Source of the DNA: Escherichia coli
GTDB lineage: Bacteria; Pseudomonadota; Gammaproteobacteria; Enterobacterales; Enterobacteriaceae
DNA: 64,000 bases
Assembly (NCBI RefSeq): GCF_050920415.1
Contig: NZ_CP169309.1
Reading direction: 5' to 3' (one strand)
Below, piece by piece: positions 7,803 to 10,535 of the stretch; position 1 is the first letter of the stretch, and each line of letters starts with the position of its first letter. The translations under genes and the position numbers were made by a program. The notes under the pieces were generated by a model. It did no database searches, was not told where the DNA came from, and saw only the letters and a program-made list of their open reading frames with translations.

Positions 7803-10535
7803 ATGATCCAGATTGATTTAGCCACGCTGGTAAAGCGGCTTAACCCCTTTGCAAAACAGGCGCTGGAAATGGCTGCCTCGGAGTGTATGAGCCAGCAGGC
7901 CAGTGAGATCACCGTTGCCCATGTGCTGTTGCAGATGCTGGCTATCCCGCGCAACGACGTAAGGGTAATTACCGAACGCACAGGCATCAGTGCGGAGGAG
8001 CTACGCCAGGCGCTGACCGTGGAGAGTTATCCCAGCGGACGTTCCGCCGAAGGCTATCCCAGCTTCTCCCCGATGCTGGTCGAATGGCTCAAGGAGTCAT
8101 GGCTGCTGGCCTCGGCCCAGATGCAGCACAGCGAACTACGCGGCGGCGTGCTGCTGCTGGCTCTGCTGCATTCACCGCTGCGCTATATTCCACCCGCTGC
8201 TGCCCGTCTGCTGACGGCCATAAACCGCGACCAGTTACAGCAGGATTTCGCGTCATGGACTAAAGAGTCCGCCGAATCCGTGAACCAGGTTGGCGGACAG
8301 GCACCCGGCACGCCTGAAACCGGCGACAGCGGGCTTGCCCGCTACGCCAAAAACATGACCGAAGATGCCCGTAACGGCAAACTTGACCCTGTACTGTGCC
8401 GTGACCATGAAATCGACCTGATGATCGACATTCTCTGCCGCCGTCGTAAAAACAATCCGGTGGTGGTGGGTGAAGCGGGTGTGGGTAAAAGTGCCTTAAT
8501 CGAAGGGCTGGCGCTGCGTATTGTCTCAGGCCAGGTGCCGGACAAGCTGAAAAACACCGATATTATGACCCTTGACCTCGGCGCATTGCAGGCCGGGGCG
8601 TCAGTGAAGGGCGAGTTTGAAAAACGCTTTAAGGGACTAATGGCGGAAGTTATCTCGTCTCCTGTGCCGGTCATTCTGTTTATCGACGAAGCGCATACCC
8701 TGATTGGCGCGGGAAATCAGGCCGGAGGACTCGATGTTTCCGGGTTGCTGAAACCGGCGCTGGCGCGGGGTGAACTGAAAACCATCGCCGCCACCACCTG
8801 GAGCGAATACAAAAAATACTTCGAGAAAGATGCCGCGCTTTCGCGCCGCTTCCAGTTAGTGAAAGTCAGTGAACCTACCGCAGCAGAGGCCACCATTATT
8901 CTGCGTGGTCTGTCGGCGGTCTATGAACAGTCTCACGGCGTGCTGATTGATGATGACGCCTTGCAGGCCGCTGCGACATTAAGTGAGCGTTATCTCTCCG
9001 GGCGTCAATTGCCGGACAAAGCGATTGATGTGCTGGATACGGCCTGCGCCCGCGTGGCAATCAACCTGTCATCGCCACCAAAGCAAATCTCAGCGCTGAC
9101 CACCCTGAGCCACCAGCAGGAGGCGGAAATTCGCCAGCTTGAGCGCGAGCTTCGCATCGGGCTGCGTACCGACACCTCGCGGATGACGGAGGTGCTGGTG
9201 CAGTATGATGTAACGCTGACGGCGCTGGATGAACTGGAAGCCGCCTGGCACCAGCAACAGGCGCTGGTACAGGAGATTATTACGCTACGCCAGCAGTTAC
9301 TGGGCGTTGCAGAGGACACAGATGCCGTAGTGGATACGCCGTCAGAGTCAGAACAGGATAATACCGGTGCCGTACTGGCTGATGAAGCTGGCAGCGTACA
9401 GCCGGAAGAGACTGTTGAAACAGTTTCCCCGGTACAGCGTCTGGCACAGCTCACTGCCGAGCTGGACGCCCTGCATAACGACCGGTTGCTGGTTTCCCCG
9501 CACGTCGATAAAACGCAGATTGCGGCGGTAATCGCAGAATGGACCGGCGTACCGCTTAACCGCCTGTCGCAGAATGAAATGTCGGTCATCACCAACCTGC
9601 CCGTATGGCTTGGAGACACTATCAAAGGCCAGGACCTGGCGATTGCCAGCCTGCATAAACATCTGCTGACTGCACGCGCCGACCTGCGCCGTCCGGGACG
9701 TCCGCTTGGCGCGTTCCTGCTGGCTGGCCCCAGCGGCGTGGGTAAAACCGAAACCGTCCTGCAACTGGCGGAACTGCTCTACGGCGGTCGCCAGTATCTG
9801 ACCACCATCAATATGTCCGAGTTTCAGGAAAAACACACCGTCTCGCGGCTGATTGGTTCCCCTCCGGGCTATGTCGGCTATGGCGAAGGTGGCGTCCTGA
9901 CCGAAGCGATTCGCCAGAAACCCTACTCGGTGGTGCTGCTCGATGAAGTGGAAAAAGCGCACCCGGATGTACTCAACCTGTTCTACCAGGCGTTTGACAA
10001 GGGCGAGATGGCAGACGGTGAAGGCCGCCTGATTGACTGTAAAAATATCGTTTTCTTCCTGACCTCCAACCTTGGCTACCAGGTGATTGTCGAACACGCC
10101 GATGACCCGGAAACCATGCAGGAAGCCCTCTATCCGGTGCTGGCGGACTTCTTTAAACCTGCCCTGCTGGCGCGCATGGAAGTGGTGCCTTACATGCCGC
10201 TGTCGAAAGAGACGCTCGCTACCATTATTGCCGGGAAACTGGCCCGCCTGGATAACGTGCTGCGCAGCCGCTTTGGCGCGGACGTGATTATTGAGCCGGA
10301 AGTGACGGACGAAATCATGAGCCGTGTCACCCGCGCTGAAAACGGCGCAAGGATGCTCGAATCGGTCATCGACGGCGACATGCTGCCGCCGCTCTCGCTG
10401 CTGCTGTTGCAGAAGATGGCAGCCAACACGGCGATTGCCCGGATTCGTCTGTCGGCGGCAGACGGTGCATTCACAGCAGACGTGGAAGATGCTCAGGACG
10501 ACGAGTCCGTCACAGAGGATGAAACGGTTTTATGA
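7803..10535 (+). CDS. clpV: T6SS AAA+ ATPase ClpV (TssH)
   Basis: 910 aa; two Walker A motifs (GEAGVGKS and GPSGVGKT); ClpB-like N-domain; AAGGA upstream. Confidence 0.95.
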   Translation: MIQIDLATLVKRLNPFAKQALEMAASECMSQQASEITVAHVLLQMLAIPRNDVRVITERTGISAEELRQALTVESYPSGRSAEGYPSFSPMLVEWLKESWLLASAQMQHSELRGGVLLLALLHSPLRYIPPAAARLLTAINRDQLQQDFASWTKESAESVNQVGGQAPGTPETGDSGLARYAKNMTEDARNGKLDPVLCRDHEIDLMIDILCRRRKNNPVVVGEAGVGKSALIEGLALRIVSGQVPDKLKNTDIMTLDLGALQAGASVKGEFEKRFKGLMAEVISSPVPVILFIDEAHTLIGAGNQAGGLDVSGLLKPALARGELKTIAATTWSEYKKYFEKDAALSRRFQLVKVSEPTAAEATIILRGLSAVYEQSHGVLIDDDALQAAATLSERYLSGRQLPDKAIDVLDTACARVAINLSSPPKQISALTTLSHQQEAEIRQLERELRIGLRTDTSRMTEVLVQYDVTLTALDELEAAWHQQQALVQEIITLRQQLLGVAEDTDAVVDTPSESEQDNTGAVLADEAGSVQPEETVETVSPVQRLAQLTAELDALHNDRLLVSPHVDKTQIAAVIAEWTGVPLNRLSQNEMSVITNLPVWLGDTIKGQDLAIASLHKHLLTARADLRRPGRPLGAFLLAGPSGVGKTETVLQLAELLYGGRQYLTTINMSEFQEKHTVSRLIGSPPGYVGYGEGGVLTEAIRQKPYSVVLLDEVEKAHPDVLNLFYQAFDKGEMADGEGRLIDCKNIVFFLTSNLGYQVIVEHADDPETMQEALYPVLADFFKPALLARMEVVPYMPLSKETLATIIAGKLARLDNVLRSRFGADVIIEPEVTDEIMSRVTRAENGARMLESVIDGDMLPPLSLLLLQKMAANTAIARIRLSAADGAFTADVEDAQDDESVTEDETVL

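What the first reader, a model, noticed from the sequence alone, without database searches (positions are those of the whole stretch)
9300..9450. Acidic low-complexity stretch in the ClpV middle region and acidic C-terminal tail
Around residues 500-545 (VAEDTDAVVDTPSESEQDNTGAVLADEAGSVQPEETVETVSP) and at the extreme C-terminus (TADVEDAQDDESVTEDETVL) ClpV carries acidic, low-complexity sequence that I do not recall from ClpB-type ATPases. These may be lineage-specific linkers; they inflate the antisense ORFs here and could affect sheath recognition or regulation.
Basis: seen in the sequence. Interest (0 to 1): 0.12.

Follow-up and report, generated by a model that had tools for sequence, protein, structure and literature searches.

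The report
Variable acidic loop in E. coli ClpV
The acidic stretch is a floppy, poorly conserved surface loop in the middle domain of the E. coli type VI secretion ATPase ClpV; in other strains it holds a six-base repeat already used for strain typing, so it is real but ordinary.

Summary
Both quoted peptides are present exactly as written in a 910-aa TssH/ClpV (window 7803-10535, + strand): residues 502-543 lie at 9306-9431 and residues 891-910 at 10473-10532. Their composition is not unusual for this acidic protein, because shuffled sequences match the acidity, entropy and K/R-free run in 6-48% of trials.

Comparison with other sequences is what makes the mid-protein segment a real feature:
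- AlphaFold2 places it as a low-confidence coil (residues 500-542) between middle-domain helices 458-499 and 543-558. This is where ClpB has its ordered motif-2 tip.
- Across 121 diverse ClpVs this segment is unconserved and 26-107 aa long (median 55; 87 here).
- Within Escherichia it is about ten times more variable than the ATPase domains.
- In other E. coli strains its "SESE" (TCAGAGTCAGAA, 9342-9353) is expanded to as many as 30 Ser-Glu repeats.
- Published generic E. coli MLVA primers (locus CVN016 or CVN017) flank it exactly. The window carries a collapsed, rare allele.

My best reading is a tolerated disordered spacer, kept acidic, that changes length in frame by replication slippage. 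Nothing points to a role in sheath recognition, which uses the N-domain. The C-terminal tail is also lineage-specific and variable. Interest is low.

The parts
7803..10535 (+). tssH/clpV coding sequence (910 aa plus stop), the T6SS sheath-recycling AAA+ ATPase
   Evidence: TIGR03345 scores 1119 bits against a cut-off of 885. Pfam finds AAA, AAA_lid_9, AAA_2 and ClpB_D2-small. It is annotated tssH, WP_000614317.1, in the identical record NZ_CP169399.1. It is flanked by tssK, tssL, vasI, tssA and tssM.
9081..9299 (+). Middle-domain coiled-coil helices L1 (residues 427-451) and L2 (residues 458-499)
   Evidence: AlphaFold2 model me424d890c144 predicts these helices with pLDDT 92-98. They align to E. 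coli ClpB M-domain residues about 410-480.
9249..9260 (+). HQQQ (CAC CAG CAA CAG), an interrupted form of a (CAG)n poly-Gln tract that reaches Q10-Q12 in other E. coli alleles
   Evidence: Protein alignment of Escherichia alleles. L004 carries (CAG)10 at this position.
9300..9428 (+). Disordered acidic loop (residues 500-542) at the L2-L3 turn, the motif-2 tip of the middle domain. This is the finding's main stretch (quoted peptide 9306-9431).
   Evidence: AlphaFold2 gives coil with block pLDDT 62/48/44/58. It falls on the disordered side of the charge-hydropathy boundary. It is unconserved and length-variable in 121 ClpVs. Escherichia amino-acid diversity is 0.168 here against 0.015-0.018 in the ATPase domains.
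9342..9353 (+). TCAGAG TCAGAA (Ser514-Glu517), a two-unit remnant of the hexanucleotide VNTR that encodes (Ser-Glu)n in other strains
   Evidence: Read from the sequence. Tandem Repeats Finder sees no array in the window but finds 30.7 copies of CAGAGT in L001. The nucleotide alignment puts the expansions at this point.
9073..9091 (+). Site matching MLVA primer CGCCGCCGAAGCAAATCTC with 2 mismatches
   Evidence: The primer matches exactly in L001-L003. Primer sequence taken from PMC8143711 Table 1.
9514..9535 (-). Site matching MLVA primer GCAATCACCGCCGCAATCTGTT with 4 mismatches. The primer-to-primer span in the window is 463 bp.
   Evidence: Amplicon lengths in other strains equal 478+6n.
9429..9476 (+). 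Middle-domain helix L3 (residues 543-558), which resumes the conserved sequence
   Evidence: AlphaFold2 helix with pLDDT about 95. The second HMMER stretch of many ClpV representatives restarts about here.
10473..10532 (+). Acidic C-terminal tail (residues 891-910). The last roughly 10 residues are predicted disordered. Its final codons overlap the vasI start (ATG at 10532).
   Evidence: Positions. pLDDT is 48 for residues 901-910. Escherichia diversity is 0.165, with a TPQ indel. Sequence read.
9005..9625 (-). Mechanical antisense ORF (206 aa) crossing the acidic stretch; no evidence that it is a gene
   Evidence: Listed among many similar antisense ORFs in the cluster. It is not annotated in NZ_CP169399.1.

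Best explanation
The stretch is a disordered, net-acidic surface loop of about 43 aa. It is inserted at the turn between middle-domain helices L2 and L3 of the T6SS unfoldase ClpV/TssH, where ClpB has the ordered motif-2 tip that docks DnaK.

It most likely acts as a tolerated flexible spacer with no sequence-specific role.
- ClpV does not need DnaK docking, so this tip is free to vary.
- It grows and shrinks by replication slippage and small deletions, always in multiples of three bases, so the ATPase stays intact. In E. coli the driver is a (TCAGAG)n microsatellite that adds Ser-Glu pairs.
- The window carries a collapsed two-unit allele.
- The acidic, aromatic-poor composition is probably kept because such segments stay soluble and are poor substrates for Hsp100 pore loops.

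The C-terminal tail is a second disordered appendage of the same kind.

Shown here: gene identity, position, predicted disorder, lack of conservation, length polymorphism, the VNTR and its primer sites.
Inferred: the loop projects outward from the hexamer, the variation is near-neutral, and the reason for the acidity.
For: - Identity and context: TssH by NCBIfam, inside a complete aspV-island T6SS cluster.
- Structure: the model has mean pLDDT 91.8, but residues 500-542 are coil with pLDDT 44-62 between helices 458-499 and 543-558. The HMMER alignment to E. coli ClpB places the stretch opposite ClpB residues about 480-511, including Tyr503.
- Not conserved: many ClpV representatives align in two pieces that break at query residues 493-505. 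The W482-V568 segment is 26-107 aa (median 55, query 87); the ClpB equivalent is 70 aa.
- Length polymorphism within Escherichia: proteins of 886-920 aa, differing by a 24-aa deletion, a 9-aa indel and a poly-Q tract.
- VNTR: (CAGAGT) at 30.7 copies in L001, and 5 and 24 repeats in L002 and L003, all with open frames. In 59 evenly sampled complete genomes the primer-to-primer length is 463-652 bp, fitting 478+6n for all but the 463- and 481-bp classes.
- Typing marker: MLVA primers match exactly on both sides.
- Low constraint: diversity is 0.168 in the loop and 0.165 in the tail, against 0.018 in NBD1 and 0.015 in NBD2.
- Dispensability: a common E. coli allele class lacks 24 of the loop residues (P0017 is on 354 contigs).
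- DnaK docking is not needed for T6S even where ClpB does the job, in Francisella (PMC7182274).
Against: - The loop is not simply junk. Across 121 ClpVs, longer segments gain 0.24 D/E but only 0.06 K/R per residue (r=0.55, not corrected for phylogeny), so composition is constrained.
- A long acidic insert is retained in Proteus mirabilis TssH, at 65% identity, with an unrelated sequence. This suggests some benefit to having a loop.
- No functional data on any allele were found.
- Low pLDDT partly reflects the thin alignment over an insert.
- Neutrality of repeat number is assumed, not tested.
Confidence: 0.72

Rival explanations
1. Regulatory rheostat. The loop at the motif-2 tip alters how the ClpV middle domain docks on NBD1 or on the neighbouring subunit, as M-domain contacts repress ClpB. 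Heritable changes in loop length or charge would then tune ATPase or threading activity, and so T6SS recycling speed, from strain to strain.
For: - The position is equivalent to the ClpB regulatory motif 2.
- ClpB M-domain head-to-tail contacts control its activity (PMC4023160, listed; established knowledge).
- There is a cross-lineage acidic bias.
- Large in-frame copy-number variation sits in intact genes.
Against: - The loop has no conserved residues.
- Alleles range from a 24-aa deletion to +56 aa without pseudogenisation, which fits tolerance as well as it fits tuning.
- No experimental data on the ClpV M-domain were found in two literature searches.
Confidence: 0.17
2. Docking or phosphorylation site. 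The Ser/Thr-rich acidic loop, with Ser-Glu repeats, is phosphorylated or binds a T6SS partner such as the FHA protein TagH encoded four genes upstream.
For: TagH is present in the cluster. The loop holds Ser and Thr in an acidic context.
Against: - No Ser/Thr kinase or phosphatase is annotated in the cluster or its flanks.
- FHA domains bind phospho-Thr, not phospho-Ser (established knowledge).
- The Ser-Glu number varies from 0 to 30, and the motif is absent from other ClpV lineages.
Confidence: 0.04
3. Nothing there: a chance compositional fluctuation in an otherwise ordinary, conserved part of ClpV.
For: Shuffles of the protein reach the same net acidity, entropy and K/R-free run in 8.7%, 35% and 48% of trials.
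Against: The segment is an insert relative to the ClpV median and to ClpB, is predicted to be disordered, and is the most indel-prone part of the gene.
Confidence: 0.03

Closest known systems
ClpB/Hsp104 middle domain, motif 2 (L2-L3 tip; E. coli ClpB Tyr503 region)
   Same: The topological position is the same: the turn between the long helix L2 and helix L3 of the coiled coil inserted in the NBD1 small subdomain.
   Different: In ClpB this tip is helical and conserved; it binds DnaK and represses the ATPase. Here it is a roughly 43-aa disordered acidic loop with no conserved residues. The protein fails the ClpB model cut-off (697 bits against 1232).
Generic E. coli MLVA locus CVN016/CVN017 (Lobersli et al. 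2012 GECM-10 scheme, as cited in PMC8143711, PMC3877011 and PMC5217547)
   Same: The published primer pair flanks the stretch with 0 mismatches in three other E. coli strains. Amplicon lengths equal 478+6n, which matches the 6-bp unit and the 478-bp offset given for CVN016.
   Different: - The window allele has 2 and 4 primer mismatches, only two repeat units and a 463-bp span, so it would score as a null or zero allele.
- The name is ambiguous. PMC8143711 labels these primers CVN017, but the 478-bp offset, the "475-bp product without repeats" (PMC3877011) and the presence/absence frequencies (PMC5217547) all fit CVN016.
- I could not read the original paper.
- No paper in the library links either locus to ClpV or T6SS.
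Variable M-domain inserts of other ClpV/TssH proteins (for example Proteus mirabilis TssH, WP_049197257.1)
   Same: An acidic low-complexity insert of similar length (95 aa against 87) sits at the same site in a 65%-identical orthologue. Similar inserts occur in at least 17 of 121 diverse representatives.
   Different: The insert sequences are unrelated. The listed Proteus members are all 903 aa, so no length polymorphism was seen there.
Acidic C-terminal extension of yeast Hsp104
   Same: A short acidic, unstructured tail follows the D2-small domain of an Hsp100 protein (from my own knowledge of Hsp104; tail composition).
   Different: The resemblance is recalled, not tested. No homology or shared motif was shown. 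Only 14 of 121 ClpVs have such a tail, and E. coli ClpB aligns only as far as query residue 870.

Membership tests
TssH/ClpV (T6SS AAA+ ATPase) | Scores above the curated cut-off of the equivalog model TIGR03345 | tested here: met
   1119.4 bits against a cut-off of 884.95, covering residues 13-884.
TssH/ClpV (T6SS AAA+ ATPase) | Two AAA+ modules with Walker A/B motifs, plus a D2-small domain | tested here: met
   Pfam finds AAA (221-323), AAA_lid_9, AAA_2 (633-794) and ClpB_D2-small. GEAGVGKS/ILFIDEAH and GPSGVGKT/VVLLDEVEKA are visible in the translation.
TssH/ClpV (T6SS AAA+ ATPase) | ClpV-type N-domain (the sheath-binding domain) | tested here: met
   Residues 2-159 match the solved V. cholerae ClpV N-domain, 3zri, at E=1.3e-29. 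Binding to TssC was not tested.
TssH/ClpV (T6SS AAA+ ATPase) | Encoded inside a T6SS core gene cluster | tested here: met
   The cluster reads tssB-C-E-F-G-tagH-tssJ-K-L-H-vasI-tssA-tssM-vasL.
ClpB disaggregase | Scores above the ClpB equivalog cut-off | tested here: not met
   TIGR03346 gives 696.7 bits against 1232.1; NF008118 gives 554.6 against 1417.
ClpB disaggregase | Ordered, conserved motif-2 tip (Tyr503 region) for DnaK docking | tested here: not met
   The region opposite ClpB 480-511 is the low-pLDDT acidic coil, and it aligns only with gaps. DnaK binding itself cannot be tested here.
VNTR / MLVA typing locus (CVN016 or CVN017) | Flanked by the published primer pair | tested here: met
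   Exact matches in L001-L003. The window has 2 and 4 mismatches, at 9073-9091 and 9514-9535.
VNTR / MLVA typing locus (CVN016 or CVN017) | Head-to-tail array of a 6-bp unit whose copy number differs between strains | tested here: met
   The population shows 1-30 units. In the window itself only 2 units remain and Tandem Repeats Finder reports no array.
Phase-variable contingency locus (on/off switching) | Repeat unit not divisible by three, so slippage shifts the reading frame | tested here: not met
   The units are 6 nt (TCAGAG) and 3 nt (CAG). Every allele examined stays in frame.
Hsp104-type C-terminal acidic extension | Conserved acidic motif that binds TPR co-chaperones | not tested
   Only the composition resembles it. 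No motif comparison was run, and bacteria lack the TPR partners (my own knowledge).

The most novel reading that the evidence does not exclude
The in-frame (Ser-Glu)n microsatellite, and the nearby poly-Gln tract, at the tip of the ClpV middle domain act as a heritable, rapidly mutating rheostat. Loop length and charge would set how strongly the middle domain restrains the ATPase, so closely related E. coli strains would differ in T6SS sheath-recycling speed and competitive killing. That would be graded contingency variation rather than on/off switching.
Probability: 0.1. Interest if true: 0.5.

Novelty: already known. Interest (0 to 1): 0.15.

Why it matters
Practically, this shows that one E. 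coli MLVA typing marker lies inside the coding sequence of the T6SS ATPase and changes the protein by up to about 60 residues. It also shows that the window strain would type as a null allele. Biologically, it marks the motif-2 tip of the ClpV middle domain as a permissive site, useful for inserting tags. It is also consistent with ClpV having lost the DnaK-docking constraint that ClpB retains. If repeat number did affect ClpV activity, it would be a simple natural series for studying middle-domain control of an Hsp100 motor, but nothing here shows that.

Tried and rejected
- Composition statistics. Shuffle tests of net acidity, entropy and K/R-free run were not significant. The case therefore rests on comparative data.
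- Tandem Repeats Finder on the window's tssH found no array in the stretch. The repeat only became visible in other strains.
- PulseNet O157 MLVA primers recalled from memory gave only random 11-mer hits in the window. I dropped this line; it says nothing about those loci.
- Literature. Searches for MLVA plus ClpV, and for CVN016/CVN017 plus T6SS or ClpB, found no paper linking the marker to the gene. Searches on the ClpV middle domain found no functional study. The Enterobacter ClpV modelling paper says only that the middle domain is the most flexible region.
- Phosphorylation/FHA idea. No kinase or phosphatase is annotated in the cluster.
- Antisense-ORF idea. Such ORFs are ubiquitous in the cluster.
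- The CVN016 versus CVN017 naming could not be resolved for certain, because the original 2012 paper is not in the library.
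Full report
**1. What is at the coordinates**

The window is Escherichia coli chromosome. Its tssH segments (window 9150-9600 and 9073-9535) match NZ_CP169399.1, strain MFDS1022581, at 100%. The ORF at 7803-10535 (+ strand, 910 aa) is the type VI secretion ATPase TssH/ClpV. It scores 1119 bits on TIGR03345 (cut-off 885), while the ClpB and ClpA models stay far below their cut-offs. Pfam finds the expected AAA, AAA_lid_9, AAA_2 and ClpB_D2-small domains.

The gene sits in a complete T6SS cluster: tssF, tssG, tagH, tssJ, tssK, tssL, tssH, vasI, tssA, tssM and a VasL-domain gene. tssB, tssC and tssE lie just upstream, and tRNA-Asp and dnaQ just downstream.

Residues 502-543 are at window 9306-9431, and residues 891-910 at 10473-10532.

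**2. Is the composition more than chance?**

Not by composition alone. The protein is acidic overall, with 126 D/E against 85 K/R.
- Shuffles of its residues reach the observed net +12 acidic charge in a 40-aa window in 8.7% of trials.
- They reach the 49-residue K/R-free run (497-545) in 48% of trials, and the minimum 44-aa entropy in 35%.
- A 20-aa window as acidic as the tail appears somewhere in 6.4% of shuffles.

So the "acidic low-complexity" impression would not stand on its own. The charge-hydropathy position of both segments is nonetheless on the disordered side.

**3. What makes the segment real**

*(a) Structure.* An AlphaFold2 model built on 121 diverse ClpV sequences is confident overall (mean pLDDT 91.8, pTM 0.79). 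It shows middle-domain helices at 427-451 and 458-499, then coil from 500 to 542 with block pLDDT of 62, 48, 44 and 58, then a helix at 543-558. The last ten residues (pLDDT 48) and the N-domain/NBD1 linker (164-172) are the only other low-confidence parts.

In the HMMER alignment to solved E. coli ClpB, the stretch lies opposite ClpB residues about 480-511. That is the end of helix L2, the L2-L3 turn and the start of L3, including Tyr503, and it aligns only with gaps. From established knowledge of ClpB, this is the motif-2 tip that docks DnaK and takes part in repressing the ATPase.

*(b) Conservation.* In an exhaustive search of 50%-identity representatives, many ClpVs align to the query in two pieces, with the first piece ending at query residues 493-505. 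In the alignment of 121 full-length representatives there is no conserved column between W482 and V568. That segment ranges from 26 to 107 residues with a median of 55. The query has 87, and E. coli ClpB has 70.

Seventeen representatives have segments of 70 or more residues. These include Proteus mirabilis TssH (65% identity, 95 residues, unrelated acidic sequence) and a Planctomycetota protein.

Longer segments are systematically acidic. Each extra residue adds 0.24 D/E but only 0.06 K/R, against whole-protein fractions of 0.136 and 0.115 (r=0.55; not corrected for phylogeny).

*(c) Variation within Escherichia.* The 120 closest proteins are 886-920 aa long, plus a few fused or extended forms. 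The differences lie in this stretch: a 24-aa deletion allele, a 9-aa indel, many substitutions, and a poly-Gln tract just upstream that runs from Q3-4 up to Q10-12.

| Region | Amino-acid diversity |
|---|---|
| Acidic loop | 0.168 (34 of 44 columns variable) |
| C-terminal tail | 0.165 |
| NBD1 | 0.018 |
| NBD2 | 0.015 |

**4. The repeat**

The region was searched against 5426 complete E. coli genomes, and 2735 contain it. Only two genomes match at 99% identity or better, and the matched span varies in length.

Three loci were fetched. In them the window's "PSESEQ" corresponds to PE(SE)n-Q:
- about 30 units in a Cambodian urine isolate (L001; Tandem Repeats Finder reports period 6, 30.7 copies, 98% matches, consensus CAGAGT);
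- 24 units in PV0838 (L003);
- 5 units in an O157:H7 strain (L002).

All three have open reading frames and are annotated as intact genes.

The window has just two units, TCAGAG TCAGAA at 9342-9353, and Tandem Repeats Finder sees no array there. A short allele (L004) shows a 72-nt deletion within the loop together with (CAG)10 in the poly-Gln tract. The window instead has the interrupted CAC CAG CAA CAG.

**5. It is a known typing marker**

A primer pair listed for the ten-locus generic E. coli MLVA scheme (PMC8143711, Table 1) matches with zero mismatches on both sides of the stretch in L001-L003. In the window it matches with 2 and 4 mismatches, at 9073-9091 and 9514-9535.

The amplicons are 658, 508 and 622 bp, which equal 478+6n with n = 30, 5 and 24. 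In 59 evenly sampled complete genomes the equivalent span is 463 bp (6 genomes), 481 bp (3), 484 bp (15), 490 bp (13), and on up to 652 bp. All fit 478+6n except the 463- and 481-bp classes. The window's 463 bp corresponds to two units minus a 27-nt piece and would be scored as a zero or null allele.

The name of the locus is uncertain. That paper labels the primers CVN017. Three things fit CVN016 instead:
- the 478-bp offset it gives;
- the "475-bp product without repeats" reported in PMC3877011;
- the frequencies in PMC5217547, where CVN016 is absent in 59% of isolates, zero in 30% and up to 11 units in the rest, while CVN017 was never detected.

The labels in the primer table are therefore probably swapped. 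I could not read the original paper. No paper in the searchable library connects either locus to ClpV or T6SS.

**6. How it most likely works**

*Shown:* the segment is a disordered, unconserved, indel-prone loop at the L2-L3 tip of the middle domain. Its length changes in units of 6 or 3 nt, so the frame is always kept.

*Inferred:*
- The changes arise by slipped-strand mispairing, the usual mechanism for 6-bp VNTRs. Rates of roughly 1e-5 to 1e-3 per generation were measured for O157 loci in PMC3777172.
- The site is permissive because ClpV does not use DnaK docking. T6S does not depend on the ClpB-DnaK contact even in Francisella, where ClpB replaces ClpV (PMC7182274).
- The loop is kept acidic and poor in aromatic and basic residues. 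Such segments stay soluble, and from published ClpB peptide-binding preferences, which I recall rather than tested, they are poor substrates for Hsp100 pore loops.

I put this tolerated-spacer model at about 0.72. The main rival, at about 0.17, is that loop length or charge tunes middle-domain repression of the ATPase. The cross-lineage acidic bias and the retention of a long loop in Proteus keep that rival alive. A phosphorylation or FHA-docking role is unlikely, since no kinase or phosphatase is annotated in the cluster.

**7. The C-terminal tail**

After the last conserved block, the median ClpV has 29 more residues and the query has 40. Only 14 of 121 representatives have a net acidic charge of 5 or more in their last 20 residues. 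Within Escherichia the tail varies, with a TPQ indel and substitutions. It is a second lineage-specific disordered appendage. The resemblance to the Hsp104 acidic tail is a recollection, not a test.

**8.

"Lineage-specific linkers" is right, and the stated refutation (general conservation) was tested and not met.

"Sheath recognition" has no support. That function belongs to the N-domain helix alpha-0 (PMC7182274), and the query's N-domain matches the solved V. cholerae ClpV N-domain.

"Inflates antisense ORFs" is trivial, because antisense ORFs of 100-274 aa occur throughout the cluster.

**9. Verdict**

This is a real but ordinary feature: a variable disordered loop at a permissive site of a well-known protein, which coincides with a published VNTR typing locus. 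Interest is low (0.15). The only reading with some novelty, a graded "rheostat" for T6SS recycling, is not excluded but has no positive evidence.

Noticed in passing
window 9249-9260 (residues 483-486, HQQQ); L004 for the expanded form: There is a second in-frame microsatellite in the same gene. Other E. coli alleles (886-895 aa) carry (CAG)n encoding 4-12 glutamines inside middle-domain helix L2, 14 residues before the loop. The window has an interrupted, presumably stable version. The poly-Q expansions co-occur with the 72-nt loop deletion in the alleles seen.
   Followed up: partly
window 8283-8330 (residues 161-176) and 7923-8072 (residues about 41-90): The N-domain/NBD1 linker is the most variable part of the protein among Escherichia orthologues (diversity 0.48; pLDDT below 50 at residues 164-172). 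The sheath-binding N-domain is also far more diverse (0.137) than the ATPase domains. This could reflect co-variation with TssC.
   Followed up: no
window 10513-10535: The tssH stop codon overlaps the vasI start (ATGA at 10532-10535). The tail codons ACA GAG GAT GAA contain a GAGGA Shine-Dalgarno-like motif 12 nt upstream of that ATG, so part of the acidic tail's coding sequence may be constrained by translational coupling.
   Followed up: no
other E. coli records (hits H9, H14, H24, H64, H65, H68, H80): In the sampled rows, tssH genes annotated only as 'AAA family ATPase' all carry long Ser-Glu arrays (about 13-30 units). Some genes with 14-15 units, and all shorter ones, are named tssH. Long arrays seem to interfere with automatic naming.
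   Followed up: no
L005 1-19000 (NZ_CP169399.1, upstream of the window's start): Upstream of tssB the strain carries three VgrG genes, two PAAR genes, a Tae4-family amidase effector, an M23-type DD-metalloendopeptidase and DUF4123/DUF3304 genes. These are interrupted by IS21 and IS2 elements and a truncated VgrG fragment.
   Followed up: no
PMC8143711 Table 1 and Methods: The primer names CVN016 and CVN017 appear to be swapped relative to the size formulas in the same paper. The primer labelled CVN016-R (GGTGAGGTGTCCGAGTGGCTGAAG) looks like the 5' end of a tRNA-Ser gene, judging from memory. Neither CVN016-labelled primer matches the window.
   Followed up: partly
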